A DNA stretch of 64,000 nucleotides from an uncultured Omnitrophica bacterium (GTDB lineage: Bacteria; Omnitrophota; Gorgyraeia; JACQQV01). Below are positions 4,002-38,997 of the stretch, in pieces (position 1 is the first letter of the stretch; the number at the start of each line of letters is the position of its first letter). The notes below the pieces were generated by a model. It worked only from the letters and a program-made list of their open reading frames with translations. It had not been told where the DNA came from and ran no database searches. The stretch covers positions 23,513 through 87,512 of the forward strand of contig CAMTXH010000013.1 in the NCBI GenBank assembly GCA_947085655.1, read 5' to 3'. Made by a program: the position numbers and the translations under genes.

Positions 4002-4442
4002 TTGGCAAAGGACAAACAGGGTTTTCTCACCGATATCAAAGAACTCCGGCGAAGGGCAAGAAAACACATTTATAAGCGGCACTACTTCATGGCCCAGGGG
4101 ATTCATGCCGAACCGGTTGCCCAGGAATTTCTCCAGCATGCCAATGACGAACAAACCCATGCGGACCAGATCGCAGCCCGGATTACCCAACTGGGGGGAG
4201 AGCCGGATTTCAGCCCGGAGGGATTGACGACCGGAAGCCATGCCGAATACGCCGAAGGGGATTCCTTGATTGATAGGGTGAAGGAAGACCTGGTTGCGGA
4301 GCGGATTGCGATTGACTCCTACGGAGAGAAGGATCCCACCACGCGCCGGATGCTCGAAGGGATTCCCGCCATGGAGGAAGAGCATGCGGACGACCTTGCC
4401 AATATCCTCTCAACGCTTGACCCGCGAAAAACCCCCTCTTGA
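4002..4442 (+). CDS. Ferritin-like di-iron protein (bacterioferritin/Dps superfamily)
   Basis: E-x-x-H di-iron ligand pattern (FLQHANDEQTHADQIAARI...EEEHADDLANIL) of the ferritin-like four-helix bundle; TTG start. Confidence 0.55.
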   Translation: MAKDKQGFLTDIKELRRRARKHIYKRHYFMAQGIHAEPVAQEFLQHANDEQTHADQIAARITQLGGEPDFSPEGLTTGSHAEYAEGDSLIDRVKEDLVAERIAIDSYGEKDPTTRRMLEGIPAMEEEHADDLANILSTLDPRKTPS

Positions 4443-4470
4443 TCCGAAGGCCTATCTCGGAACCCGGACG

Positions 4471-5718
4471 ATGATCGAGTTTATTGAGCACCTTGGAGAA
4501 AAGATAGACGCCTCATGGGGAAAGAAGGGGTACGCCCTGGAGGCCTTTTCGCAGATTGCTTTTCAAACCCTTCAGCAGGCCGGACTGCATAGGGTATTTA
4601 CGGTCGAAAAACTTCTGGATTCCCTCTGGACGAAGAAGGACCTTCCCAAACAGCTTTCCCTATTTAACGGATTCGGACAGCCCCCCATTACGCTCTATCG
4701 CAATCAGCAACACAACTTTCTGATCGATCTTTATTTCTGGATTCAGCCCGAAATCTCCATCCACTCACACGGGTTTCGGGGCGCGTTTACAGTCCTGGAG
4801 GGTAGGAGCTTCCAGTGCCGGTACGATTTTTCCATCCGTGATAACCTCGAAAATACCATTTTATTCGGTGACCTGACGCTTCGGGATACGACACTCCTTC
4901 ATCCGGGGGATGTTCAGGAGATTTTGGCCGGACCGTCCTATATTCATCAGGTCTGGCATCTCAGTTTTCCGACCCTCTCGCTGGCGGTCCGTACCCTTGA
5001 ACCACAACAGACCCAGTACGTCTATTTGAGGCCCCATATGGCCTTCTTGGCCCGTTCGAACGCGATGTCTTTGACAGAAGAGAATACAGCCTATTTCCCT
5101 CTTCCAAGTAAAAAGATCGATACCCTCGTCTGTTTGAACGCGACCCGGTATCCGCTAGAGGGCCGCAGCCCCCGCGCATGGCTGAAAGCGTTGATTGCAG
5201 AAACCCCTCCCCACGAAGGGTTTCTTCATCTCATAAAGTATTATGACCTCACCCGCGATATCGAGGCGATTCAGGATGTTCTAAACAGTGCCCCATCACT
5301 CGGAAAGTGGGCTCCGGAATTTCTCGCCACCTTGAGCCGGATGCATGGGGTGCAGATCAAGTGGACCCAGATCCGGGAGGAGGGGGAGCGGTTTCTCCTG
5401 GCGCTTCTTTTCTCCCTTGAAGAACAAAGTGATATCATGCGGTTGGTTCGGGCCTACAACCCTGCGGAAGCACCCGAGGCCCTCATCGTCAAGTGGTTGG
5501 CCGGTCTGATGCACCGTCGGGATGTGAATATTCAGATGAATCATACCGCGCTCACAGTCCTGGAACGGTTCCTTTACGGCGATTCCGAGGAGGAAGTTTG
5601 CAGACATCTTTCCCGGATCTACAAGGGGACGGATCCGCAAATCTTAAAGGAAGATGTCCGACAGATCCGGGATCGACTCCGTTCCGACGGACTGCTGAAG
5701 GCATTACAAAAAGGTTGA
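4471..5718 (+). CDS. Hypothetical protein with an N-terminal cupin-like domain
   Basis: The ORF-track ORF (4294) overlaps the ferritin-like gene; the first in-frame ATG after that gene's stop is at 4471 (MIEFIEHLGEK). It carries a cupin-like H-x-H...E motif (IHSHGFRGAFTVLEG) and a second His-containing motif (IHQVWH). Confidence 0.5.
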   Translation: MIEFIEHLGEKIDASWGKKGYALEAFSQIAFQTLQQAGLHRVFTVEKLLDSLWTKKDLPKQLSLFNGFGQPPITLYRNQQHNFLIDLYFWIQPEISIHSHGFRGAFTVLEGRSFQCRYDFSIRDNLENTILFGDLTLRDTTLLHPGDVQEILAGPSYIHQVWHLSFPTLSLAVRTLEPQQTQYVYLRPHMAFLARSNAMSLTEENTAYFPLPSKKIDTLVCLNATRYPLEGRSPRAWLKALIAETPPHEGFLHLIKYYDLTRDIEAIQDVLNSAPSLGKWAPEFLATLSRMHGVQIKWTQIREEGERFLLALLFSLEEQSDIMRLVRAYNPAEAPEALIVKWLAGLMHRRDVNIQMNHTALTVLERFLYGDSEEEVCRHLSRIYKGTDPQILKEDVRQIRDRLRSDGLLKALQKG

Positions 5719-5816
5719 GCGAATACCCATCAGGAATTATTCAAAAATCTTTCGTTCCGGCCCTTATTTTGTTCGGTTCCGCCTTGGGTATGGCGCTGAC
5801 GTTTGCGGGGGAAGGC

Positions 5817-6350
5817 ATGAAGAAAGAGGATCTCGGAAAAGCGACTTTTGCCGGCGGATGCTTCTGGTGTATGCAGCCGCCGTATGATGAACTGGAGGGC
5901 GTCGTTTCCACGACGGTCGGCTATACCGGGGGAGCCAAGAAAAATCCGACCTATGAGGAGGTCTCTTCCGGCACCACCGGGCATGCGGAGGCGGTGGAAA
6001 TCACCTACGACCCCTCAAAGATTTCCTACGAGGCGTTATTGGAGGCCTTCTGGAAAAATATCGACCCCACCACCCAGAACCGGCAGTTCGCCGACATCGG
6101 GACGCAGTACCGGACCGCCATCTTTTATCATGATGAAGAACAGAAGCGGCTCGCGCTCGCCTCAAAGGAAGGATTGGAGAAGTCCGGAAAATTCAAAGGC
6201 CCCATTGTCACCGAAATCGTTCCCGCCTCCGTCTTTTACCCTGCCGAGGACTATCACCAGGATTACTACAAGAAATGTCCCGTCCCCTACAACCTTTATA
6301 AAGTCGGTTCGGGAAGAGCGCAGTTTTTGAAAAAACAGTGGGGGAAATGA
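5817..6350 (+). CDS. msrA: Peptide-methionine (S)-S-oxide reductase MsrA
   Basis: GCFWC active-site motif. The protein is near-collinear with short MsrA proteins of the MSEKKEIATFAGGCFWC type, including TGHAEAV, QF-DIG, YR-AIFY and DYHQ-YY motifs. The ORF-track start (5493) overlaps the upstream gene; ATG at 5817 (MKKEDLGKATFAGGCFWC) is preferred, with ATG at 5790 as an alternative. Confidence 0.9.
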   Translation: MKKEDLGKATFAGGCFWCMQPPYDELEGVVSTTVGYTGGAKKNPTYEEVSSGTTGHAEAVEITYDPSKISYEALLEAFWKNIDPTTQNRQFADIGTQYRTAIFYHDEEQKRLALASKEGLEKSGKFKGPIVTEIVPASVFYPAEDYHQDYYKKCPVPYNLYKVGSGRAQFLKKQWGK

Positions 6351-6658
6351 TGTCTGTCGAGAAATGGGAGCCGAAGAAGGACGGGCCATTTTCGGAAAAG
6401 GCCCTTCGCCGGAAACTGGAATCCCGCGGATATCAAGTTTATCAGTATACGTATCCGCCGGGAACCGTTTTTCCGAATCATACGCATGGGATCGACAAAA
6501 TCGATGGGGTGGTCTCCGGCCGCTTCCGGATGAAGATGAAGGGACTGGATGTCATCCTGGAGGCGGGGGATTGTCTGGCGGTGCCGCGCGGTACGGTCCA
6601 TTACGCAGAAGTGGTGGGGGATGAACCGGTCGTCAGTCTGGATGCGACCCGGGAATGA
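6338..6658 (+). CDS. Cupin-domain protein (cupin_2)
   Basis: PGTVFPNHTHGIDKIDGVVSG...GDCLAVPRGTVHYAE cupin motifs. Its start is coupled to the msrA stop (ATGGGGGAAATGATG; alternative ATG at 6347). Confidence 0.65.
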   Translation: MGEMMSVEKWEPKKDGPFSEKALRRKLESRGYQVYQYTYPPGTVFPNHTHGIDKIDGVVSGRFRMKMKGLDVILEAGDCLAVPRGTVHYAEVVGDEPVVSLDATRE

Positions 6659-7545
6659 GCCGGGCTACGCTCATTTATAATCCGGTTGCCGGAGATCCGC
6701 AAGGCAATCTTCTCCAAAAGGTCCGGCATGTTCTTGAAGAAGAGGGAATCTCCCATCTCTTTAAACCGACCCGTGAAGCGCGGGAGGGAACCCGGCTTGC
6801 CAAAGAGGCGGCTCAAGAGGGAAGTGACCTTGTGATTGCCGCCGGCGGGGACGGCACAGTGAATGAAGTGGTGAACGGTCTCGTCGGGACCGAGGCGATA
6901 CTCGGCATCATTCCGATGGGAACCGGGAACCTTGCCGCTTATGAATTCGGCGTTCCCCTTGATCCGTTGGAGGCGGCTCGCGCCATTCCGAAAAGCCGGG
7001 TTGAACGGATTGACGTCGGAAAGGCGAACGACCGTTATTTTTTGATGATGACAAGTGTCGGTCTGGACGCCAAAGCCCTTCGGGATGCCCCCCGCTGGGG
7101 ATACAGGGCGCTTCACTGGTGGGCTTTTTTTTGGACCGGGTTTCTCAATCTTTTTGTGACAAGGCCGTTTCCCCTCCGGCTTCAGACCGCACAGAGGGAG
7201 ATGGCCTATACGACCCGCCTTCTGGTTGTTTCCAACATTAAAGGATACGGCCTTCCGGGATGCGAATTTCTTTCGAATGCGGATACCGCCGACGGATTTT
7301 TGGATGTCGGTTTTTTCAAATCGGAGAATCTTTGGTGTTACCTTCGGGGACTTTCCGCTCTCGGGCGGCGCAGGCCGATATCGCCGCATCTCGTCCAGCG
7401 AGGCCGGGTGGAAAAAGTCCGGATTGCGGCGGATATCCCGGTCCCGGCACAAGTCGACGGCGATTTCTACGGCTACACACCGCTTGAGGTTTCTGTGGTT
7501 CCAAAGGCCCTTTCCATTTTAATTCCCCAGAAAGATGTTCCGTAA
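6655..7545 (+). CDS. Diacylglycerol-kinase-family lipid kinase (YegS/BmrU-like, DAGK_cat)
   Basis: [10 protein letters not shown]...[19 protein letters not shown]...[11 protein letters not shown] motif set. Confidence 0.8.
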
Positions 7546-8275
7546 GATTGTCGTCCTGACCGGCGCCGGGATTTCGGCCGAATCCGGCATCAAAACATTC
7601 CGGGATGCCGGAGGGCTTTGGGAGAATTACCGGATTGAAGATGTGGCGACCCCCGAAGGATACGCGCGGAATCCGGAACTTGTCCTCAATTTTTATAATG
7701 AAAGGCGGAGACATCTTCTCGGGGGAACGATCCGGCCGAATCCGGGGCATTTGGCGCTTGCAGAACTTGAGAAAAATTTCCCGGGGGGATTTCTCCTTGT
7801 CACCCAGAACGTGGATAACCTTCACGAACAGGCCGGAAGCCGGAATGTTCTACATATGCACGGGGAGCTTCTAAAAGTCCGGTGTGCCCGGTCAGGGAAG
7901 GTATTTCCGGCGGAGGAAGACGTTCACACGGAGGATCGTTGTCCCTGCTGCAACCTGGCCGGCGCCTTGAGGCCCCATGTCGTCTGGTTCGGGGAGATCC
8001 CGCTTGAGATGAACCGGATTTTCGAAGCCCTGAGCCGTTGTGACCTTTTCATCTCGGTTGGCACCTCAGGCGTTGTCTATCCGGCGGCCGGGTTTGTGCA
8101 GGTGGCGCGGGAGGCAGGGGCGCATACGGTGGAATTGAATCTTGAACCCTCCGCAGTTCAGTCCCTTTTTGCCGAAAAAATCTACGGTCCGGCGAGCCGA
8201 GCGGTCCCGGAATACGTTCAGAAATTTTTTGCCAACAAGCACCACGTCGCAGACGAGACCTCCGAAAAGGCGTAA
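7535..8275 (+). CDS. cobB: NAD-dependent protein deacylase (sirtuin, Sir2/CobB family)
   Basis: [26 protein letters not shown], Zn ribbon C-x2-C...C-x-C (CARSG...CPCC), and [12 protein letters not shown]. Confidence 0.85.
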
Positions 8276-8339: not shown

Positions 8340-8410
8340 ATCATTCCGTCCTGAAACCTTTGGGTTTTTCCCGCATCTATACCAGCAGAACAAGAAGGGC
8401 GGTGTTTCTC

Positions 8411-8998
8411 ATGCGTCGTGTTGGCTGGATGTCTGCTTTGCTCCTATTGTACTTATTGGTTTCTCCCCTTTGGGCGGCCACCTATAAAGTGGATCCCCAC
8501 CATACGACCGTCGGTTTCAAAATCCGCCATCTTTTTTCATGGGTGCACGGCACGTTTAACGAATTTGAGGGAACCATTGAATATGAACCGGCAAAACCGG
8601 AAAGTTGGTCCGCCTCGGGCACCATTCAGGCGGCCAGTATTGATACGCGGGTTGCCCCGCGGGATAAACACCTTCGCTCCGGTGATTTCTTCGATGTGGA
8701 GAAGTATCCGACGATTGACTTCCGGACAACCCGGATCGATGATGTCGGCGCCAACAAGGCCAAGCTGCACGGCTTTCTCACGATTCACGGTGTTGAAAAA
8801 GAGGTGGAGTTGGATGTGGAAGTCCTCGGAATTGCCAACGATCCATGGGGAAACACCGTGGCGGGATTTTCCGCCACGACCACCTTTGACCGTCGGGACT
8901 TTGGATTGACATGGAATGAGACGTTGGAGACCGGAAGTGTCCTCGTAGGGAACGAGGTTCAGATCACCCTCGACATCTCCGCGCTCCTTCAAAAGTAA
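8411..8998 (+). CDS. YceI-family periplasmic (polyisoprenoid-binding-like) protein
   Basis: Signal peptide MRRVGWMSALLLLYLLVSPLWAATYKV, then YceI motifs (HTTVGFKIRHL, HGTFNEFEGTIEY, YPTIDFRTT). The ORF-track start at 8360 has no RBS; ATG at 8411 is preceded by GAAGGG. Confidence 0.8.
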   Translation: MRRVGWMSALLLLYLLVSPLWAATYKVDPHHTTVGFKIRHLFSWVHGTFNEFEGTIEYEPAKPESWSASGTIQAASIDTRVAPRDKHLRSGDFFDVEKYPTIDFRTTRIDDVGANKAKLHGFLTIHGVEKEVELDVEVLGIANDPWGNTVAGFSATTTFDRRDFGLTWNETLETGSVLVGNEVQITLDISALLQK

Positions 8999-9008
8999 GA
9001 TAAAGGAG

Positions 9009-9311
9009 GTGAACATGGCGTCGGTGAAACCAAAACGGAACAAAAGACAAACGCTGGTGGCCGCGTCTGTCGCGGGCCTTCTCGCTTTGGCGGCTGTCCC
9101 CGGCATGGTGCAGGGGCATCTGGAAGCGGCCGAGGAAGGGAAGACGAAGTGTTACGGCGTCAACAAGTGTAAGGGCACCGGTGACTGCGGTGGAAAGGGT
9201 CATTCCTGTGCAGGACTGAATGCCTGTCAGGGGCAGGCGTGGATTTATCTTCAGGAAAAGGACTGCCTTCGGATCCAGGGCGGGCGCTTGACTCCCGAAG
9301 AAGAAGGATAA
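9009..9311 (+). CDS. DUF2282-family secreted Cys-rich small protein (bufferin BufA-like RiPP precursor candidate)
   Basis: Sec signal peptide (LVAASVAGLLALAAVPGMVQG), then KCYGVNKCKGTGDCGG-HSCAG-NACQGQAW...DC, matching the conserved Cys-containing DUF2282 core as I recall it. An AAGGAGG RBS lies 7 nt upstream. Its stop codon overlaps the downstream ATG (TAATG). Confidence 0.7.
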   Translation: MNMASVKPKRNKRQTLVAASVAGLLALAAVPGMVQGHLEAAEEGKTKCYGVNKCKGTGDCGGKGHSCAGLNACQGQAWIYLQEKDCLRIQGGRLTPEEEG

Positions 9312-11002
9312 TGTGGCCTCTTCTCGGGTGCGGGGTCGGTCTTCGGACGGATCATTATGACCTGATTACCCGCGAATGGCCCGGGATGGACTGGTTTGAG
9401 GCTGTCTCCGAGAATTTTATTGATTCTGGGGGACGGCCTCTTTCTGTTTTGGAGAAGGTCCGGGCCCGTTATCCGGTGGCCCTCCACGGCGTCTCTCTTT
9501 CCATCGGTTCGGCCGATCCGCTGGATGAAACATATCTCAAAAAATTAAAAACGCTTGCGGATCGGATCGAACCGGTCTTGGTAACGGACCACCTTTGTTG
9601 GAACGGTGTAGCGGGGGAGTGCCTGCACGATCTTCTGCCCCTTCCATTTACGGAAGAGGCGATCCGGCATGTGGTACGGCGGGTCCAAAAGGTCCAGGGG
9701 TTTCTTGGCCGGCGGATTCTCCTTGAAAATATCTCCACTTACATTACGTACAAACATTCGGAGATGCCGGAATGGGTTTTTCTTTCGGAAATTGCCCGCC
9801 GTTCCGGATGCGGCATCCTTCTTGATTTGAACAACCTCTATGTCAATTCCGTCAATCACCGTTTCGAGCCGGAGGAAACCCTCCGGAATATTCCGGGAGA
9901 ATTCGTCGGACAGTTCCATCTGGCCGGGCATACCGACAAGGGAAAATACCTTTTTGATACCCATAATAGCCGTGTGATCGAGCCGGTCTGGGAGTTGTAC
10001 CGGAAGGCCCTTTGTCAGTGGGGGGCGGTGGCTACCCTGATTGAATGGGACGAGGCGATCCCCGATTTTCCAGGTCTTTCGGAGGAGTCGAAAAAAGCGC
10101 GGGCGATTTATGAGGAAGTGACGAAAGGCAAAAAAGATGCTTTAGAAGCAGCTCCTTCCCAAAAACCGGTCATCCGCCCCCGGCCGCCGGAGGGGCCAGA
10201 TCTTGCAACGCTTCAGTGTTGGATGAAATCCCAGATTCGGCCGAGCGGCGGTGGGAAAGAAACTTTTTCCGAATCTCCCCTGAATCCGCAGGGGGGAGAC
10301 CCGGGAATAGTCCGGATGGAGGTGTACGCATCCGGGTATCTGGCGAGGATGAAAGAAGCGCTTGAAGAGGTTTATGAGGCGGTGCACCACCTGACGGGCG
10401 AGGGGGTCTTTTCACGCCTTGCAACCGACTACGCGAAACAATTTCCCTCCCGGCATTACAATTTAAGCGCGGCCGGGGTCCATTTCAGCCGTTTTTTGGA
10501 GATGGCGGAAATCACCGAAAAGCTTCCCTTTCTGCCGGATCTTGTACGGCTTGAGTGGAAGGTGAATCAGGCCTTTCACGCTTTTGAAAAACCGCCCCTC
10601 TCACCGGAGATCTTTCAATCCGTTCCGGAGGAAAAGTGGGATGACTTGGTTTTTGAGTTTCAACCCTCCGTCGGCATCGTCTCCTCCGGGTGGCCTATTC
10701 TGGACCTTTGGCAGGCGCGGAAAACTCCTCGCAAGGAAATCGATATCCAGGTCGTGGACCGCCCCCAGACAGTGCTTATTTTCCGGAAGGGTTTTCAGGT
10801 CCGGTGCGAAAATCTTGAAAGAGGAGAGGCCGCGCTTCTTGAGGGGCTTCTTGCCGGCCGAAGCCTCGGCGATGTCTGCGGTTCGCTTGCCGACTTTTCA
10901 AAAGATCTGTTGCCCGATCTCACCGGAACTTTCCGCAATTGGATGCAAAAAGGCCTTCTGATATGTTACAATGCAGGTAGGATTGGGCACGATGCAAAAT
11001 AG
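9311..11002 (+). CDS. Fused DUF692 (MbnB/BufB-like TIM-barrel di-iron enzyme) and DUF2063 (MbnC/BufC-like) protein
   Basis: The N-terminal ~280 aa show DUF692 hallmarks (GVGLRTDHY, FEAVSENF, HGVSLSIGS, VTDHLCW, LLPLPFTEE, ILLENISTY, GCGILLDLNNLYVNS, FHLAGH). After a Pro-rich linker the C-terminal ~250 aa are DUF2063-like. It is one uninterrupted ORF. The ORF-track start (9239) overlaps bufA; ATG at 9311 (MWPLLGCGVGLRTDHY) is preferred. Confidence 0.75.
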   Translation: MWPLLGCGVGLRTDHYDLITREWPGMDWFEAVSENFIDSGGRPLSVLEKVRARYPVALHGVSLSIGSADPLDETYLKKLKTLADRIEPVLVTDHLCWNGVAGECLHDLLPLPFTEEAIRHVVRRVQKVQGFLGRRILLENISTYITYKHSEMPEWVFLSEIARRSGCGILLDLNNLYVNSVNHRFEPEETLRNIPGEFVGQFHLAGHTDKGKYLFDTHNSRVIEPVWELYRKALCQWGAVATLIEWDEAIPDFPGLSEESKKARAIYEEVTKGKKDALEAAPSQKPVIRPRPPEGPDLATLQCWMKSQIRPSGGGKETFSESPLNPQGGDPGIVRMEVYASGYLARMKEALEEVYEAVHHLTGEGVFSRLATDYAKQFPSRHYNLSAAGVHFSRFLEMAEITEKLPFLPDLVRLEWKVNQAFHAFEKPPLSPEIFQSVPEEKWDDLVFEFQPSVGIVSSGWPILDLWQARKTPRKEIDIQVVDRPQTVLIFRKGFQVRCENLERGEAALLEGLLAGRSLGDVCGSLADFSKDLLPDLTGTFRNWMQKGLLICYNAGRIGHDAK

Positions 11003-12464
11003 AGAATCACTGCAAGCCATTATCAGAGAAAGAGTCAGCAACGAGCTCTTTGTCGTTGTTTCAAACCGCGAACCCTATATCCATCAATTTAAAGGGGAGG
11101 AGATTGTCTGTCAGGAGGCGACCAGCGGACTGATCACCGCACTCGACCCGGTGATGCAGGCCTCAAGCGGTATCTGGATCGCGCACGGAAGCGGGGATGC
11201 GGATCAAAAGGTGGTCGATCAAAAAAATCATGTCCGGGTGCCGCCAGAAAACCCCTCTTACACCCTTCGCCGTGTCTGGCTCACCAAAGAAGAGGAGGAC
11301 GGCTACTATTACGGCTTTTCGAATGAAGCCCTCTGGCCCCTTTGCCATGTGGCCTATACCCGTCCGGTTTTTAACGATGCGGATTGGAAAACGTACTGTG
11401 CCGTCAATCAGAAATTTGCGGATGCGATTCTTGAAGAAGTGGGAAGCCGGAAGGCCTTTGTCTTTATCCAGGATTATCACTTCACGCAACTGGCGCGACT
11501 CCTCAAGCGGCCGAATATCCGGACCGCGCATTTCTGGCACATCCCCTGGCCGAATCCCGAGGTTTTCCGGATTTGCCCCTGGGCGACCGAAATCCTCGAC
11601 GGGCTTTTAGGAAACGACCTCCTCGGTTTCCACACGCGGCTTCACTGCCAAAATTTTCTGGACAATGTCTGGACGATGCTCAAGGCAAAGGTAGATTATG
11701 AGCGGTTTGAGATCAGCCGGGATGGAGCCACCACATCGGTCCGTCCCTTCCCGATCAGCATCGATTTTGAAGCGACCTCCGAGGACGCCCGGAGCGCCGA
11801 GGTGGAAACGGAGATGGAAAACCTCCGGAAAAAATACGGGCTTCGGAATATGTTGATCGGGCTCGGGGTGGACCGGGTTGACTATACGAAAGGGATTCCG
11901 GACCAATTCCGGGCGCTGGACCGGTTTCTGGAGCGGTATCCGGAGTATCAGGGGCGGGTGATGATGGTGGAAATCGGCGTTTCCAGCCGGGCGCGAATCC
12001 CGACGTATCAGAGAGTGAACGACGAAATCGACCAGATTGTGGAAGAGGTCAACTGGAAATATCAGAAGGGGGGATGGAAGCCGATTCTCTATCTGAAGGA
12101 AAGGGCTCCGGCGACAACACTGCACGCCTGGTACCGGCTGGCAAACTTCTGCGTGGTCAGTTCCCTGCACGATGGAATGAATCTGGTGGCCAAGGAGTAC
12201 GTTGCTTCCCGCAATCAGGAGGACGGCGTTCTTCTCCTCAGCCGCTTTACGGGGAGCGCCCGCGAACTGACCGACGCCATTTTGATTAATCCCTATGCCA
12301 TCGACCATATGGCGGAGGCCTACCGCGAAGCCCTGACCATGCCGCTGAAGGAGCAAAAAAATCGGATGCGGCAACTCCGCGCGCATGTGCAGGATCACAA
12401 TATCTACCGGTGGGCCGCTCAGGTCCTCTCATCCCTCTTTCAGTTTGAATTTGCGGAGAAATGA
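10992..12464 (+). CDS. otsA: Alpha,alpha-trehalose-phosphate synthase (GT20)
   Basis: GT20 motifs (VVSNREPY, GGL..AL, WIAHGSG, GFSNEALWPLCH, FIQDYHF, FFLHIPWP, HDGMNLVAKEY). An ATG at 10992 overlaps the bufBC stop (ATGCAAAATAG), indicating translational coupling; the ORF-track start is 10971. Confidence 0.85.
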   Translation: MQNRESLQAIIRERVSNELFVVVSNREPYIHQFKGEEIVCQEATSGLITALDPVMQASSGIWIAHGSGDADQKVVDQKNHVRVPPENPSYTLRRVWLTKEEEDGYYYGFSNEALWPLCHVAYTRPVFNDADWKTYCAVNQKFADAILEEVGSRKAFVFIQDYHFTQLARLLKRPNIRTAHFWHIPWPNPEVFRICPWATEILDGLLGNDLLGFHTRLHCQNFLDNVWTMLKAKVDYERFEISRDGATTSVRPFPISIDFEATSEDARSAEVETEMENLRKKYGLRNMLIGLGVDRVDYTKGIPDQFRALDRFLERYPEYQGRVMMVEIGVSSRARIPTYQRVNDEIDQIVEEVNWKYQKGGWKPILYLKERAPATTLHAWYRLANFCVVSSLHDGMNLVAKEYVASRNQEDGVLLLSRFTGSARELTDAILINPYAIDHMAEAYREALTMPLKEQKNRMRQLRAHVQDHNIYRWAAQVLSSLFQFEFAEK

Positions 12465-12467
12465 TTT

Positions 12468-13265
12468 TTGAAGCATCCCCCGAAATTTTTCCTTTTCGCC
12501 GATTATGACGGAACCCTCACCCCGATTGTCTCCCACGCCAAAAAAGCGCGCCTTTCCAAAAAATTACGGCGCCTTTTAAAAAAACTTTCCCGAAAGCCGG
12601 GATGCATCCTCGGGATTGTGAGCGGCCGCGCGCTCCCGGAACTGAAGCGCTTCGTCGGAGTCCCCGGCCTTGTCTATATCGGAAACCACGGATTTGAACT
12701 TGAGTCCAGCCGGTTTTCCTTCGTTCATCCTTCCGCACGCCGCGCACGCCCCCTCATGGAACGGATTGCCGATACCTTGGAGGAGTCTCTCAAAGAGTTC
12801 CGGGGGGCATGGGTGGAGCGGAAGGGATGGACGGTGAGCGTTCACTGGCGGGGCGTTTCTCCGCGGAAGCAAAGCCGTTGCCGGCGCCGGATTCTGGTCG
12901 CTGTGGCCTCCGCCCGCAGAGCGCACAAAATCCGTCTGACGCATGGGAAATGCGTCACAGAAATCCGTCCACCGGTCCTTTGGAATAAAGGGACGATGAT
13001 TGAATGGGCGGTGAAACGGCTTGCGGGAAGAAACAGGCGTTTTGGGTCATGTTATCTGGGGGATGACCGGACGGATGAAGATGCGTTCCGGGTCGTCAAT
13101 CGTCTCGGGGGGATTTCCATTTTTGTTGGAAAAGACAAGAAACATTCCCGGGCGTGTTATTCTTTGAAGAATCCCAACGACGTCCAAGTGTTTTTTAAGC
13201 ATCTTCTCGATGATTTACCCGTCGCCGAGGCCGTTTGTCAAGGCGGCGGCGTTCTGTTACCATAG
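12468..13265 (+). CDS. otsB: Trehalose-6-phosphate phosphatase (HAD-IIB)
   Basis: FLFADYDGTLTPIV (DxDGT HAD motif I); later motifs S/T and K-x(n)-GDD (YLGDDRTDEDAF); only a 3-nt gap after otsA. Confidence 0.8.
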   Translation: MKHPPKFFLFADYDGTLTPIVSHAKKARLSKKLRRLLKKLSRKPGCILGIVSGRALPELKRFVGVPGLVYIGNHGFELESSRFSFVHPSARRARPLMERIADTLEESLKEFRGAWVERKGWTVSVHWRGVSPRKQSRCRRRILVAVASARRAHKIRLTHGKCVTEIRPPVLWNKGTMIEWAVKRLAGRNRRFGSCYLGDDRTDEDAFRVVNRLGGISIFVGKDKKHSRACYSLKNPNDVQVFFKHLLDDLPVAEAVCQGGGVLLP

Positions 13266-13289: not shown

Positions 13290-13691
13290 ATGACAGCGAA
13301 GGAAAGATTGCTGAATGTGGGGCTATTGTGGCTTCGGGTGCTGGTGGGACTCGGAATCGCATCCCACGGCTACCAGAAAATTTTCGGCGGGCAGTTGAGT
13401 TTGTTAATCAACAGCGTGACGGAAATGGGGTTTCCCCAGCCGGTCCTCCTTGGCTGGGCAGCGGCTCTCTCGGAATTTGCCGGAGGGATTCTGATCGTGC
13501 TCGGGCTTGGCACCCGTGTCGCCGCCTGCTTTGTCTTTGCCACGATGAGCGTTGCCGCATTTATCGCGCATGCTTCGGATCCTTTCCAAGTAAAGGAGTT
13601 GGCTCTCGCCTATTGGACGATGGCCGGCTTTTTGATTTTAAGCGGAGGAGGCATATTTTCGTTGGATGCGAAGTGCTTCCGGGAGGGATAA
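13290..13691 (+). CDS. DoxX-family membrane protein
   Basis: Four TM segments, WLRVLVGLGIASHGYQKIFGG, and an overall DoxX pattern. Confidence 0.8.
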   Translation: MTAKERLLNVGLLWLRVLVGLGIASHGYQKIFGGQLSLLINSVTEMGFPQPVLLGWAAALSEFAGGILIVLGLGTRVAACFVFATMSVAAFIAHASDPFQVKELALAYWTMAGFLILSGGGIFSLDAKCFREG

Positions 13692-13850
13692 ATGGTCGGC
13701 GTGATCATGGGGATCGTCGTATTGACGATGGTGGTCTTGGCTTTTACACTGGATCCGCAGGTCAAGCGCTGCGAACATTGCGAGGGTCCGGTCACGCTGA
13801 AGGAATTCTGGTCGCATTTTAAGAGGTGTTCTGAAACCAAAAAGAAATGA
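13692..13850 (+). CDS. Unannotated 52-aa micro-ORF: single TM helix plus C-x2-C...C cluster (MVGVIMGIVVLTMVVLAFTLDPQVKRCEHCEGPVTLKEFWSHFKRCSETKKK)
   Basis: An ATG sits immediately after the DoxX stop, and the ORF's TGA overlaps the sigma-factor ATG (ATGA), so it would be coupled on both sides. It is below the 60-aa cut-off of the ORF track. Confidence 0.4.
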   Translation: MVGVIMGIVVLTMVVLAFTLDPQVKRCEHCEGPVTLKEFWSHFKRCSETKKK

Positions 13851-14470
13851 ACCGCATCTCAACAGGAGACCAAGCACTGATTCGCCGGCTGAAAGTGCGT
13901 GACGAAACGGCGGTGGGGGAGCTCATGACCCAGTATCACGCGAAGGTGATGGGCCTCGCCCTCCGGCTCACCGGCAATCGTCAGGACGCGGAAGAAGTGC
14001 TCCAGGACGTTTTTTGGACGGTGGTTCAAAAAATCGGGGGCTTCCGGGAAGAGTCGAGTCTTTCCACTTGGATTTACAGGATTGCCACGAATGTCGCATT
14101 GATGAAACTCCGCAAACGCCCCAAAATCGAGGAACTTCCCCTTGACGAAGAACTCGGCCCCAAGATAACCGGAGAAGGGATGATTGCCGAGACGGTGACG
14201 GATTGGTCCAATCTTCCGGATGGTGCCGCATCCCGCAAGGAATGGATGCAGCATCTGGAGGAGGCGGTCCGGAGACTCCCTCCGGAATACCGGACTGTTT
14301 TTGTCCTTCGGGATGTGGAAGGACTCTCTGCCGAAGAAGCATGCAAGATCCTGAATCTTTCTATTCCGGCCCTGAAAAGCCGGCTGCACCGGGCGCGGCT
14401 TTTCCTTCGAAAGGAGATGGCGGATGTGGCGGAGACCCGGCCGATCGGAATGAGGTCACCCCATGCTTAA
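13847..14470 (+). CDS. ECF-type RNA polymerase sigma-70 factor
   Basis: Sigma70 region 2 (VLQDVFWTVVQKIGGFREESSLSTWIYRIATNVALMKLRKR) and region 4 (YRTVFVLRDVEGLSAEEACKILNLSIPALKSRLHRAR). Confidence 0.85.
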   Translation: MNRISTGDQALIRRLKVRDETAVGELMTQYHAKVMGLALRLTGNRQDAEEVLQDVFWTVVQKIGGFREESSLSTWIYRIATNVALMKLRKRPKIEELPLDEELGPKITGEGMIAETVTDWSNLPDGAASRKEWMQHLEEAVRRLPPEYRTVFVLRDVEGLSAEEACKILNLSIPALKSRLHRARLFLRKEMADVAETRPIGMRSPHA

Positions 14471-14750
14471 ATGCAGGGACATCAACGGATTGCTTCATGA
14501 TTATGCGGAAGGGCTCTTGGAGCTCTCCGTTCACAAAGAGCTGGACCGGCATCTTTCGGATTGCCCCGGCTGTCTCGCTTTTGTGAAGACCTATAAAGAA
14601 ACCATCCGCCTTTCGAAAGACCTTCGCACCGGGGAGATGCCTCCCGAACTTCAAGAGAAGCTCGAGAGTTTCCTCAAAGCCAAACTCGCTGAAAAACCCA
14701 AAACCCTCTGGGACCGGCTCCGCTCCCGCTTCGGCCGGGGCTGTTGTTAG
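14463..14750 (+). CDS. Anti-sigma factor, zf-HC2 type (soluble, ChrR/RsrA-like)
   Basis: H-x3-C-x2-C motif (HLSDCPGC); its start overlaps the sigma stop (ATGCTTAA). Confidence 0.7.
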   Translation: MLKCRDINGLLHDYAEGLLELSVHKELDRHLSDCPGCLAFVKTYKETIRLSKDLRTGEMPPELQEKLESFLKAKLAEKPKTLWDRLRSRFGRGCC

Positions 14751-37110: not shown

Positions 37111-38997
37111 TTGATTTTAATACAATCTTCGATGCAGTTGCAACAAAAAAATGAAATGAGAAATAAGCCCCTCATGGTCTATGACGGCGATTGTGCTTTT
37201 TGCCGCCGCTGGATTCTCCGCTGGAACTCCCTGACAAAAGGGCGGGTCGAGTATGCTCCTTTTCAGGAAGTGGCCCAAGAATTTCCTGAAATACCGCGGG
37301 AAGCGTTCGAGAAGTCGGTTCAGTTGATTCTGCCCGACGGAAACGTCTTTTCAGGGGCAGAAGCAACTTTTCGATGTCTTGCCGAAGGAGGGAAGTGCTG
37401 GCCTTTGCGGTTCTACCGGTATCTTCCGGGCGCGGCGCTCCTTGCGGAATGGGGGTATGCTCTTGTTGCGCGCCACCGCATTTTTTTCTCAAAAGTCAGC
37501 CGGTGGCTTTGGGGAAAGGAACTCGAACCGCCCACTTTTGAAACTACACGGATGGTCTTTCTCCGGGGGTTGGGTGTAGTCTACGGCATCGCCTTTGTTT
37601 CCCTCTGGACGCAGATTGCAGGCCTCGTCGGAACAAACGGCATCCTTCCGATGAAGCCGTATCTGGAGACGGCCCGTCTTTTTCTGGGGGGTGAACGCTT
37701 TTGGTCTTTACCGACCCTTTTTTGGATGAATCAGGAGGACGTCTTTCTTCACCTTGTCTGCGGAGGAGGGACGCTTCTTTCCCTTGTTCTTATCGCCGGG
37801 ATTGCGCCGGTTCCGGTTCTCGTTTTGCTTTGGTTTTCCTACCTTTCCCTCGCGGTCGTCTCCCGAGATTTCCTTCAGTTTCAATGGGATGCTCTTCTTC
37901 TTGAATGCGGGTTTTTGGCTATTTTTCTGGCTCCCTTCGGGTGGTTGCCCCGCTCGTTTCATCGTTCTCCTCCTTCACGAGCGGTCCTCTGGCTATTCGC
38001 CTGGCTCCTTTTCCGGCTCATGTTTTCCTCCGGCATGGTGAAACTTGCAAGCCATGACCCGACCTGGCGGAACCTTACCGCCCTTCAATATCATTATGAA
38101 ACGCAGCCCCTCCCGACCTGGATCGGGTGGGCCGTCCATCAACTCCCGGCCTGGTTTCAAAAGGGATCTGCGGCCGGGATGTTTGCGATTGAACTCGGGG
38201 TCCCCTTTCTGATTTTTATGCCGAGACGGATCCGGTATTTCGGCTGTGCGGTTTTAATCGGCTTTCAGATACTCATCGCGGCAACCGGAAACTACTGCTT
38301 CTTCAATCTCATCACCGTCCTTCTTTGTCTTCTCCTTTTGGAGGATTCCTTCTGGCGGAGGTGGCTACGGCGGGGAACGCCTTTTCTCGAGAAGTCCGAA
38401 TCCTTCCGTTCGCGACACTGGCCCCGATGGATCCTGGTCCCTCTTTTCGCGCTCATCATCCTCGCGACACTGGCCCCGATGGTCGATCTTTTCCATCCGC
38501 GCTTCCGGTGGCCCAACGCGGTGATCGCACTTTATCGGGATTTGATTCCCTTTCGAAGCATCAACTCCTACGGTCTTTTTGCGGTCATGACGACCGACCG
38601 ACCCGAAATTATTGTGGAGGGCTCAAACGACGGGGAAAATTGGGTTCCGTACGCGTTCAAATACAAACCGGGCGATTTAAAAAGGCGTCCCGGTTTTGTC
38701 GCCCCGCATCAGCCGCGGCTCGACTGGCAGATGTGGTTTGCGGCACTCGGGCCTTATCAACAAAGTCCCTGGTTCCTCCATTTCTGCGAGCGTCTCCTTG
38801 AGGGGTCCCCGGAGGTCCTTGCCCTTCTTGAGACGAACCCCTTCCCGGATGCCCCTCCGCGCTATCTCCGTGCTGTCCTTTATGATTACCGCTTCACCCA
38901 CTTTGGTATTTGGCGCGAAAAGGGGCATTGGTGGCAAAGGACCCCCCGCGGTTTTTACCTGCCGCCTATCACCCTTCGTGATTCGGAATTTCCTTAA
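37111..38997 (+). CDS. Fusion of DUF393 (thiol-disulfide oxidoreductase DCC) with a lipase-maturation-factor (LMF) family polytopic membrane domain
   Basis: VYDGDCAFCRRW (DCC motif) at the N-terminus, then about 10 TM segments including a YHYETQPLP-type LMF region. The probable start is ATG 37156 (MRNKPLMVYDG). Confidence 0.7.
   Translation: MILIQSSMQLQQKNEMRNKPLMVYDGDCAFCRRWILRWNSLTKGRVEYAPFQEVAQEFPEIPREAFEKSVQLILPDGNVFSGAEATFRCLAEGGKCWPLRFYRYLPGAALLAEWGYALVARHRIFFSKVSRWLWGKELEPPTFETTRMVFLRGLGVVYGIAFVSLWTQIAGLVGTNGILPMKPYLETARLFLGGERFWSLPTLFWMNQEDVFLHLVCGGGTLLSLVLIAGIAPVPVLVLLWFSYLSLAVVSRDFLQFQWDALLLECGFLAIFLAPFGWLPRSFHRSPPSRAVLWLFAWLLFRLMFSSGMVKLASHDPTWRNLTALQYHYETQPLPTWIGWAVHQLPAWFQKGSAAGMFAIELGVPFLIFMPRRIRYFGCAVLIGFQILIAATGNYCFFNLITVLLCLLLLEDSFWRRWLRRGTPFLEKSESFRSRHWPRWILVPLFALIILATLAPMVDLFHPRFRWPNAVIALYRDLIPFRSINSYGLFAVMTTDRPEIIVEGSNDGENWVPYAFKYKPGDLKRRPGFVAPHQPRLDWQMWFAALGPYQQSPWFLHFCERLLEGSPEVLALLETNPFPDAPPRYLRAVLYDYRFTHFGIWREKGHWWQRTPRGFYLPPITLRDSEFP

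What the first reader, a model, noticed from the sequence alone, without database searches (positions are those of the whole stretch)
9311..11002. BufB-like (DUF692) and BufC-like (DUF2063) domains encoded as a single 563-aa fusion protein
In methanobactin and bufferin systems the TIM-barrel iron enzyme (MbnB/BufB) and its partner (MbnC/BufC) are, as far as I know, separate polypeptides forming a heterodimer. Here one uninterrupted frame carries both, joined by a Pro-rich linker (PVIRPRPPEGPD). This is Rosetta-stone evidence for their obligate partnership, and a single-chain enzyme like this might be useful for biochemistry.
Basis: partly seen in the sequence, partly recalled or inferred. Interest (0 to 1): 0.65.

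Follow-up and report, generated by a model that had tools for sequence, protein, structure and literature searches.

The report
Natural single-chain BufB–BufC bufferin maturase
The gene is a genuine natural fusion of the iron enzyme and the helper protein that together mature a copper-binding peptide (a bufferin); such fusions are common in uncultured bacteria and sit unremarked in public databases, so it is a useful example but not a discovery.

Summary
Observation confirmed. Window 9311..11002 (+) is one uninterrupted 563-aa ORF. Residues 7-267 are an MNIO/BufB TIM barrel (Pfam PF05114, E=6.5e-104; NCBIfam BufB, 359 bits against a cutoff of 310). Residues ~298-556 are a DUF2063 + RRE-type partner (PF09836, E=3e-14; best PDB fold matches TglI and NGO1945). 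A ~25-residue non-conserved linker joins them.

It is not an assembly artefact. The identical protein occurs on 6 contigs, including one MAG and two independent read-set assemblies. All 120 listed homologues (50-58% identity) carry both domains. In a 50%-identity representative library, 112 of the top 150 hits are fused. AlphaFold gives pLDDT 94 and pTM 0.91, which implies a fixed inter-domain interface.

The context is a bufferin cluster: yceI, a 6-Cys Sec-signal precursor (bufA, stop overlapping the fusion's ATG), bufBC, then otsAB, doxX and an ECF sigma/anti-sigma pair.

Novelty is limited. The DUF692–DUF2063 architecture was noted in 2009, the B–C partnership is experimentally established, and a 2026 preprint engineered an HvfB–HvfC fusion that was more active than the co-expressed pair. 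The MNIO papers I could read do not discuss natural fusions. The practical value is a ready-made single-chain enzyme. Interest is modest.

The parts
8411..8998 (+). yceI-like periplasmic protein gene (195 aa as called; the longest ORF starts at 8360). It lies directly upstream of bufA with a 16-nt gap, so it is probably co-transcribed.
   Evidence: Pfam PF04264 YceI, E=6.3e-50; gene call. A YceI ORF sits immediately upstream of bufA in 7/7 fused-clade genome loci and in L084 and L085.
9015..9311 (+). bufA: 98-aa bufferin precursor with an N-terminal Sec-type signal peptide and six Cys (core CYGVNKCKGTGDCGGKGHSCAGLNACQG...DC). AGGAGG lies 6 nt upstream of the ATG. Its TAA stop shares one base with the ATG of the fusion gene (TAATG, 9309-9313).
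   Evidence: Pfam PF10048 (DUF2282/BufA1), 30.3 bits against 22.4; NCBIfam NF050166 BufA2, 64.4 bits against 60. Sequence. Six Cys positions are conserved across relatives.
9311..11002 (+). bufBC: single 563-aa ORF encoding the MNIO enzyme fused to its PME-type-1 partner.
9329..10111 (+). MNIO / BufB TIM-barrel domain (aa 7-267). H59, H94, E139, D172, N175, H203, D216 and H218 are invariant and E245 is nearly invariant.
   Evidence: PF05114 E=6.5e-104. Foldseek: 3BWW TM 0.89, TglH 8HCI_B, MbnB 7FC0_B. Invariant columns. The same residues are aligned in 3BWW, TglH and MbnB.
10133..10201 (+). Interdomain linker (aa ~275-297, includes PVIRPRPPEGPD). It is not conserved in sequence or length.
   Evidence: Non-helical segment between helices 253-274 and 298-309, pLDDT ~75-78. 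The aligned segment corresponding to aa 262-300 is 27-86 residues long in 118 homologues; the linker proper is rich in A/S/P/E/K.
10211..10498 (+). DUF2063 (HvfC_N) helical domain of the partner half (aa 301-396).
   Evidence: PF09836 E=3.1e-14. Invariant R335, R346 and F367.
10628..10978 (+). C-terminal RRE-type (winged-helix-like beta/alpha) domain of the partner half (aa ~440-556).
   Evidence: Strands and helices at aa 446-555 in the model. The C-terminal-only model matches TglI (8HCI_A, E=7e-6) and NGO1945 (3DEE, E=3e-5, TM 0.65); the RRE protein TbiB1 is a weak hit. Weak NCBIfam HvfC hit over aa 335-551.
10971..13265 (+). otsA-like (GT20) and otsB-like (trehalose phosphatase) genes lying between bufBC and doxX. 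They probably do not belong to the bufferin system.
   Evidence: PF00982 E=1.5e-125; PF02358 E=9.5e-48. Not detected next to bufBC in relatives.
13290..13691 (+). doxX (bufD-like membrane protein), 2.3 kb downstream of bufBC.
   Evidence: PF07681 E=2.1e-19. The HvfX-family hit of 55.6 bits is below its cutoff of 80.
13847..14750 (+). ECF sigma factor (13847-14470) and zf-HC2 anti-sigma factor (14463-14750), a possible regulator pair.
   Evidence: Sigma70_r2/r4_2 and zf-HC2 hits. Sigma/anti-sigma genes are reported in Buf1 clusters (PMC12452194).

Best explanation
bufBC encodes a genuine cytoplasmic single-chain bufferin maturase. The N-terminal TIM barrel is the multinuclear non-haem iron oxidase (BufB). 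The C-terminal half is the DUF2063 + RRE-type partner (BufC) that is normally a separate subunit. A flexible, non-conserved linker of about 25 residues tethers the partner's N-terminus to the barrel's C-terminal helix, so the usual 1:1 heterodimer forms within one molecule.

Inferred by homology: the enzyme acts on the co-translated 98-aa precursor BufA before Sec export. It uses O2 and a mixed-valent di-iron site to convert some of the six Cys into 5-thiooxazoles. After signal-peptide cleavage the periplasmic product chelates copper or a related metal.

Shown here: the ORF, the domains, the folds, conservation of the metal-site residues, the recurrence of the fusion, and the operon layout. 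Inferred only: the chemistry, the metal specificity, the intramolecular interface geometry, and regulation by the nearby ECF sigma factor.
For: - ORF and domains.
- The identical protein is found in independent assemblies.
- All 120 listed nr90 homologues are 466-625 aa with PF05114 + PF09836. 112 of the top 150 50%-identity representatives are fused, at 31-54% identity, so the fusion is maintained over deep divergence.
- The AF2 full-length model has pLDDT 94.2 and pTM 0.91. A pTM that high for a two-domain chain means the inter-domain packing is confidently predicted.
- N-terminal half matches 3BWW, TglH and MbnB. C-terminal half matches TglI and NGO1945, the known MNIO partners.
- Invariant H59, H94, E139, D172, N175, H203, D216 and H218, with E245 nearly invariant, align with the conserved motifs of 3BWW, TglH and MbnB. 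N175, D216 and H218 correspond to HvfB N175/D242/H244, which are essential for activity.
- There is no second BufB, BufC or BufA anywhere in the 64-kb window.
- bufA has a signal peptide and six conserved Cys, and is translationally coupled to bufBC.
- Other fused lineages sit in canonical contexts: small ORF-bufBC-DoxX in L087, and ECF sigma/anti-sigma plus YceI in L086.
- An engineered HvfB-HvfC head-to-tail fusion is active, which shows the B-then-C topology is compatible with catalysis.
Against: - No biochemical data exist for any natural fusion.
- Model coordinates could not be obtained, so the predicted interface was not superposed on the MbnBC or TglHI heterodimers.
- The HvfC equivalog score is far below its cutoff (22 against 142), and sequence profiles do not reach 3DEE. 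The partner half is assigned by Pfam and by fold only.
- The precursor has six Cys and hits both the 'BufA1' Pfam model and the 'BufA2' NCBIfam model, so which Cys are modified is unknown.
- In Caulobacter the signal peptide is dispensable for modification, so what the RRE domain recognises is unclear.
Confidence: 0.85

Rival explanations
1. The fusion is an artefact. A sequencing or assembly frameshift, or a lost stop codon, in the bufB-bufC junction has joined two normally separate, overlapping genes.
For: Separate, often overlapping bufB and bufC genes are the rule in 69 of the 80 best GTDB genome loci. The close relative L011 has two overlapping ORFs in different frames, which shows that a single indel can switch between the two states.
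Against: The exact 563-aa product is found on 6 contigs from a MAG and two independent Logan assemblies. All 120 listed homologues are fused, as are 112 of the top 150 representatives. The linker is 20-70 in-frame residues, not a short overlap. No long homopolymer lies in the junction.
Confidence: 0.02
2. The ORF is real, but the protein works as two pieces. The disordered linker is cleaved, or translation also starts internally near M305, giving a conventional BufB + BufC heterodimer.
For: The linker is non-conserved with lower pLDDT. A GGAGG-like motif (10189-10195) precedes the in-frame ATG at 10223.
Against: The GGAGG-to-ATG spacing is about 28 nt, far from a functional Shine-Dalgarno distance. 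A Met at this position is not among the conserved columns. Persistence of the fused frame across more than 100 clusters at 50% identity argues that the covalent link itself is selected, or at least tolerated. The engineered HvfBC fusion works uncleaved.
Confidence: 0.07
3. It is a single-chain MNIO-partner enzyme with a different chemistry or role from characterised bufferins. For example, it might make oxazolone/thioamide or another Cys modification, or bind a metal other than copper. It may work with the conserved YceI protein rather than with DoxX.
For: The precursor has six Cys, not the four of BufA1, and straddles two family models. YceI is upstream in 7/7 fused-clade loci but in only 3/73 split loci. 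DoxX is not adjacent in the two relatives whose neighbouring genes carry Pfam annotation. MNIOs are chemically diverse.
Against: The enzyme half passes the BufB equivalog cutoff. The precursor passes the BufA2 cutoff, and 6-Cys BUF_6/12Cys bufferins are an established copper-responsive class. HvfB-type and BufB-type enzymes characterised so far all make 5-thiooxazoles.
Confidence: 0.15

Closest known systems
BufB1/BufC1 and BufB2/BufC2 of Caulobacter vibrioides (bufferin maturases; PMC11626156)
   Same: It has an MNIO (DUF692) enzyme plus a DUF2063/RRE partner, a Sec-signal Cys-rich precursor encoded immediately upstream, DoxX and an ECF sigma factor in the neighbourhood, and it passes the NCBIfam BufB equivalog cutoff.
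   Different: The enzyme and partner are one polypeptide here. doxX is separated from bufBC by otsA-otsB. The anti-sigma factor is of zf-HC2 type. yceI is part of the cassette. The precursor has six Cys but also carries a DUF2282 signature.
HvfB/HvfC of Haemophilus influenzae and the engineered HvfBC fusion (PMC11252979; bioRxiv 10.64898/2026.07.17.739211)
   Same: The domain order is the same (MNIO, then partner). The closest solved structure, 3BWW, is an HvfB homologue (TM 0.89). The engineered fusion shows that a covalent B-C link gives an active enzyme, more active than the co-expressed pair.
   Different: The HvfBC fusion is man-made and has no linker. This one is natural, with a ~25-residue linker. 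The HvfB and HvfC equivalog cutoffs are not reached (243 against 360; 22 against 142). The precursor is not an EGKCG-repeat oxazolin.
MbnB/MbnC (methanobactin) and TglH/TglI (3-thiaglutamate) heterodimers with solved structures (7FC0, 7DZ9, 7TCR, 8HCI, 8HI7)
   Same: It has the same TIM-barrel fold and the same conserved metal-site motifs. The partner half resembles TglI in fold.
   Different: Those are two-chain complexes. The MbnB equivalog is not met (48 against 325). MbnC is only a marginal fold match (E=1.4). The substrates and products differ.
MovX (an MNIO with its own C-terminal RRE-like domain, needing no partner; cited in PMC11252979 and the 2026 preprint)
   Same: It is a precedent for an MNIO that carries its substrate-recognition module in the same chain.
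   Different: As those papers describe it, MovX has only an added RRE-like domain, not a complete DUF2063 + RRE partner. I did not compare sequences.
The DUF692-DUF2063 Pfam architecture noted by Das et al. 2009/2010 (PMC2954202)
   Same: It is exactly this architecture, with DUF692 N-terminal to DUF2063. One of 216 PF09836 proteins had it at that time.
   Different: It was reported only as a database observation, when both domains were of unknown function. There was no link to RiPP maturation and no survey.

Membership tests
MNIO / BufB (Pfam PF05114; NCBIfam NF050167 MNIO_BufB) | Score above the curated family cutoffs | tested here: met
   PF05114: 347.3 bits against 25. NF050167: 359.3 bits against 310.
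MNIO / BufB | TIM-barrel fold like solved MNIOs | tested here: met
   Foldseek: 3BWW E=2.7e-17, TM(target) 0.89; TglH 0.76; MbnB 0.84. The model has pLDDT 94.
MNIO / BufB | Conserved His/Asp/Glu/Asn metal-site residues | tested here: met
   H59, H94, E139, D172, N175, H203, D216 and H218 are invariant and E245 is nearly invariant in 118 sequences. They align to the same motifs in 3BWW, TglH and MbnB. N175/D216/H218 are equivalent to the essential HvfB residues N175/D242/H244. Assignment of the remaining residues to Fe sites 1 and 2 rests on my knowledge of the MbnB structures.
MNIO / BufB | Binds 2-3 Fe and oxidises precursor Cys to 5-thiooxazole | not testable with these tools
   This requires expression, Fe analysis and MS/UV of modified BufA.
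PME-type 1 partner (DUF2063 + RRE; BufC/HvfC/NGO1945) | PF09836 DUF2063 signature | tested here: met
   53.4 bits against a gathering score of 27.2, aa 301-396.
PME-type 1 partner | Two-domain fold (helical DUF2063 followed by an RRE-type domain) like NGO1945 / TglI | tested here: met
   The C-terminal-only model (pLDDT 91.5) matches 8HCI_A (E=7.3e-6, TM 0.58-0.60) and 3DEE (E=3.3e-5, TM(target) 0.65). These are the only matches below 1e-3.
PME-type 1 partner | HvfC-family equivalog (NF050145) score | tested here: not met
   22.3 bits against a cutoff of 142. It is therefore not an HvfC orthologue in NCBI's sense; it is a divergent PME1.
PME-type 1 partner | Stand-alone protein of ~250-260 aa encoded after the MNIO gene (the typical form, PMC12452194) | tested here: not met
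   Here it is the C-terminal half of the MNIO polypeptide. This is the variant feature.
Bufferin biosynthetic gene cluster | Adjacent Cys-rich precursor with a Sec signal peptide (DUF2282 or BUF_6/12Cys) | tested here: met
   bufA at 9015-9311 passes PF10048 and NF050166. The signal-peptide-like N-terminus and six conserved Cys were read from the sequence and alignment. No signal-peptide predictor was run.
Bufferin biosynthetic gene cluster | DoxX (bufD) gene in the operon | tested here: inconclusive
   A DoxX gene is present at 13290-13691 but lies 2.3 kb downstream, behind otsA-otsB, and scores below the HvfX cutoff. No DoxX is annotated next to bufBC in the two close relatives whose neighbours carry Pfam annotation. 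My phmmer screen for DoxX in the other loci was too insensitive to count.
Bufferin biosynthetic gene cluster | Product binds copper and protects against copper stress | not testable with these tools
   Needs experiment.
Methanobactin MbnBC | MbnB equivalog (TIGR04159) and an MbnC partner | tested here: not met
   TIGR04159: 48.1 bits against 325. MbnC (7DZ9_C) gives only E=1.4, TM 0.26-0.35. No MbnA-like precursor is present.

The most novel reading that the evidence does not exclude
Natural BufB-BufC fusions may form a large set of single-chain MNIO-PME1 maturases that has gone unrecognised, because annotation names only the BufB half. Fused and split forms are interleaved on a rough tree, which hints at repeated fusion or fission. 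In the Omnitrophota-centred clade to which this gene belongs, they may define a distinct minimal bufferin cassette, yceI-bufA(6-Cys)-bufBC. In that cassette a periplasmic YceI protein, rather than DoxX, would be the conserved accessory. If so, this clade would offer a naturally optimised single-chain enzyme for structural and mechanistic work, and a new accessory component whose role in bufferin function is unknown.
Probability: 0.3. Interest if true: 0.5.

Novelty: new member of a known kind. Interest (0 to 1): 0.35.

Why it matters
MNIO enzymes need partner proteins that often bind weakly or cannot be purified alone. This has hampered spectroscopy and structural work. In 2026 one group resorted to engineering an HvfB-HvfC fusion and obtained higher activity with defined 1:1 stoichiometry.

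This window, and at least 112 fused representatives at 50% identity, show that nature has made the same construct many times, with native linkers of 20-70 residues. These are ready candidates for crystallography, cryo-EM and mechanistic study of how the partner tunes the di-iron site.

There is also an annotation issue. Current names ('DUF692 family protein', 'MNIO family bufferin maturase') hide the partner half. Genome-mining pipelines that look for a separate DUF2063 gene after the MNIO gene may therefore classify these clusters as lacking a partner.

Biologically this is an ordinary bufferin-type metal-homeostasis locus.

Tried and rejected
- **No model coordinates.** They are not exposed, so I could not superpose the predicted intramolecular interface on MbnBC or TglHI. 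pTM is only an indirect indicator.
- **Sequence searches against PDB.** Sequence and profile searches found the MNIO half only, never 3DEE, TglI or MbnC. The partner half needed a separate C-terminal model and Foldseek.
- **RNA and promoter scans.** The Rfam and tRNA scans of the window found nothing, so there is no rRNA-based taxonomy. Placement near Omnitrophota rests only on the names of the best homologues. The promoter/terminator scan was uninformative.
- **phmmer context screen.** Screening with the window's DoxX, sigma and anti-sigma sequences is too insensitive to judge their presence in distant loci. Only the YceI and BufA counts are used, with caution.
- **N-domain tree.** The NJ tree gives about 19 fused/split state changes. 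It has no support values and its sampling is biased towards fused hits. I use it only to say the two states are interleaved, not to count events.
- **Literature.** Searches for natural MNIO-partner fusions found only the 2009 Pfam note, MovX, and the engineered HvfBC. Subscription papers are not covered, so a published mention may exist elsewhere.
- **Rejected readings.** A methanobactin-type assignment and an artefactual frameshift.
Full report
**1. The observation**

The window has one open frame from 9239 to 11002 on the + strand. The ATG at 9311 gives 563 aa. Three independent gene calls use this start, and it matches the N-termini of the homologues. It overlaps the TAA stop of the upstream gene by one base (TAATG).

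Pfam places PF05114 (MbnB_TglH_ChrH, i.e. MNIO/DUF692) at aa 7-267 (E=6.5e-104) and PF09836 (DUF2063) at aa 301-396 (E=3.1e-14, above the gathering score). NCBIfam's BufB equivalog is passed (359 bits against 310). The HvfB, ApyH, MbnB and ChrH equivalogs are not passed.

The DNA there is in frame, without stops or long homopolymers. The description is therefore accurate.

**2. Artefact or real?**

The identical 563-aa product is recorded on six contigs. Three were read here: the MAG GCA_964374045.1 (contig CAYJWX010000001.1, 172,949 bp, evidently the source of the window) and two separate Logan assemblies (ERR4904390 and ERR4904392). All three have the same neighbouring genes.

A search of 5.8 billion clustered proteins gave 2,255 hits at E<=1e-10. 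All 120 listed (50-58% identity apart from the query itself and one 70%-identical fragment; 466-625 aa) carry both Pfam domains. In the exhaustive 50%-identity representative library, 112 of the best 150 representatives contain both halves in one chain, 14 more have a partial C-terminal half, and 24 are stand-alone BufB. Many fused representatives are only 31-46% identical to the query.

The fusion is therefore real, old and diverse.

In 118 aligned homologues, the segment corresponding to aa 262-300 of the query varies from 27 to 86 residues. The linker proper has no conserved sequence and is rich in Ala, Ser, Pro, Glu and Lys. This is the signature of a flexible tether, not of a read-through accident.

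**3. What the two halves are**

AlphaFold2 with the 118-sequence alignment gives pLDDT 94.2 and pTM 0.91 for the whole chain. Only the linker (pLDDT ~75-78) and the last four residues are less confident.

The full model matches the HvfB-like structure 3BWW (TM 0.89), TglH and several MbnB chains. A separate model of aa 288-563 (pLDDT 91.5) has only three PDB matches below E=1e-3. They are TglI (8HCI_A and 8HI7_A) and NGO1945 (3DEE), which are the known MNIO partner proteins. MbnC is marginal (E=1.4), and the RRE protein TbiB1 appears weakly. The C-terminal half is therefore a PME-type-1 partner (DUF2063 + RRE) as defined in PMC12452194.

In the barrel, H59, H94, E139, D172, N175, H203, D216 and H218 are invariant and E245 is nearly invariant across the family. 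They align with the equivalent motifs of 3BWW, TglH and MbnB. N175, D216 and H218 correspond to HvfB N175/D242/H244, which are essential for activity.

No other BufA, BufB or BufC-like ORF exists in the 64-kb window, so the fused protein is the only maturase available.

**4. Context**

The fusion gene is preceded by bufA (9015-9311). BufA is 98 aa, with an AGGAGG ribosome-binding site, a basic and then hydrophobic N-terminus typical of a Sec signal peptide, and six Cys in the motif CYGVNxCKGxGxCGGKGHxCAGxNxCKG...C. This motif is conserved in relatives. BufA passes both Pfam PF10048 (DUF2282/BufA1) and NCBIfam BufA2.

A yceI-like gene sits 16 nt upstream of bufA. Downstream lie otsA, otsB, doxX, an ECF sigma factor and a zf-HC2 anti-sigma factor.

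In relatives of the same clade the cassette yceI-bufA-bufBC is conserved (7/7 GTDB loci, plus L084 and L085), while the downstream genes differ. More distant fused lineages sit in other canonical bufferin contexts:
- a small ORF, bufBC and DoxX in L087;
- a divergent ECF sigma/anti-sigma pair, bufBC, a small ORF and YceI in L086.

**5. Distribution**

In one genome per GTDB species, the 80 best loci comprise:
- 7 fused genes, from MAGs labelled Omnitrophota (including Candidatus Taenariivivens baikalensis), 'Planctomycetia' or simply uncultured bacterium;
- 69 with adjacent separate bufB and bufC, mostly Pseudomonadota, Nitrospirota, Bdellovibrionota and similar groups;
- 4 truncated or unclear.

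L011 belongs by score to the fused clade but has two overlapping ORFs in different frames (BufB 293 aa, BufC 279 aa). This is either a genuine fission or a MAG frameshift.

Deposited names for other fused representatives include 'Deltaproteobacteria' and 'Pseudomonadota' MAGs and 'Verrucomicrobiae'. A rough NJ tree of the barrel domain interleaves fused and split forms (about 19 state changes). This hints at repeated fusion or fission but is not robust.

**6. Mechanism**

The best-supported reading is a cytoplasmic single-chain BufB-BufC. The tether enforces the 1:1 complex that normally forms between two subunits. The enzyme modifies Cys residues of the translationally coupled precursor into 5-thiooxazoles before Sec export, and the periplasmic product chelates copper.

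The ORF, domains, folds, conservation, recurrence and context are shown here. The chemistry and biology are inferred from BufBC (PMC11626156), HvfBC and FonBC. That an engineered HvfB-HvfC head-to-tail fusion is active, and more active than the co-expressed pair, shows the B-then-C topology is catalytically competent.

Rivals:
- An artefact, essentially excluded.
- Processing or internal initiation into two chains. No positive evidence; the SD-like motif is ~28 nt from the only candidate ATG.
- Different chemistry or metal. Possible, given the 6-Cys precursor and the yceI linkage.

**7. Comparison and novelty**

The system is a member of the bufferin family by the enzyme and precursor equivalog cutoffs. 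It is not a methanobactin system.

The fused architecture is a variant of the usual two-gene arrangement, but it is not new. Das et al. (PMC2954202) recorded one DUF692-DUF2063 protein among 216 PF09836 members in 2009, and hundreds now sit in public databases.

The MNIO papers I could read do not mention natural fusions. These were the 2024 bufferin paper, the 2025 landscape paper with its supplements, the HvfB papers and the FonBC paper. They list MovX and ChrH as the exceptions to the two-protein rule.

The Rosetta-stone inference adds nothing, since the partnership is already established experimentally. The practical point stands: natural single-chain enzymes could serve the purpose for which the HvfBC fusion was engineered.

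I rate this a new member of a known kind, with modest interest (0.35).

Noticed in passing
window 8411-11002; L004-L010, L084, L085, L086: yceI-bufA-bufBC is a conserved cassette. A YceI-like gene is directly upstream of bufA in 7/7 fused-clade genome loci and in two further relatives. One also lies beside a distant fused homologue (P0121). Only 3 of 73 loci with separate bufB/bufC (or unclear) have a YceI hit within 6 kb. In the MNIO papers I read, YceI appears only once, in a supplement.
   Followed up: partly
window 10971-13265: otsA-like and otsB-like trehalose synthesis genes lie between bufBC and doxX and the ECF sigma/anti-sigma pair. This looks like an insertion into a canonical bufABC-doxX layout. 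The otsA ORF overlaps the end of bufBC by 32 nt. The arrangement was not seen in relatives.
   Followed up: partly
L011 5950-7594 (CAZXLF010000005.1, MAG labelled Planctomycetia): This is the closest relative with separate genes: BufB 293 aa and BufC 279 aa, overlapping by 77 nt in different frames and with almost no linker left. It is either a natural fission of the fused gene or a frameshift error in that MAG.
   Followed up: partly
window 9015-9311: The precursor has six conserved Cys and passes both the Pfam model now named BufA1 (DUF2282, described as four-Cys) and the NCBIfam BufA2 model. It straddles the two published bufferin classes.
   Followed up: partly
P0044, P0031, P0089, P0094, P0123 (database names): Public annotations call the fused proteins 'DUF692 family protein' or 'MNIO family bufferin maturase', with no mention of the partner half. 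Mining pipelines that expect a separate DUF2063 gene could score these clusters as lacking a partner.
   Followed up: no
window 37111-38997 (+): A 628-aa ORF combines an N-terminal DCC1-like thiol-disulfide oxidoreductase domain with lipase maturation factor (LMF1 and LMF1_C) domains.
   Followed up: no
window 41039-45532 (-): A 1,497-aa ORF with FG-GAP repeats lies on the minus strand, in a region of lower G+C (0.48-0.49, against ~0.53-0.56 elsewhere).
   Followed up: no
window ~4090-8275 (+): Upstream of the cassette, on the same strand and tightly spaced, are ferritin-like, unknown (415 aa, no Pfam hit), MsrA, cupin, YegS/DAGK-like and SIR2 genes. This is a stress-flavoured neighbourhood that may be co-regulated with the bufferin genes.
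   Followed up: no
window 1-64000: No tRNA gene and no Rfam family at gathering threshold were found anywhere in the 64 kb.
   Followed up: yes
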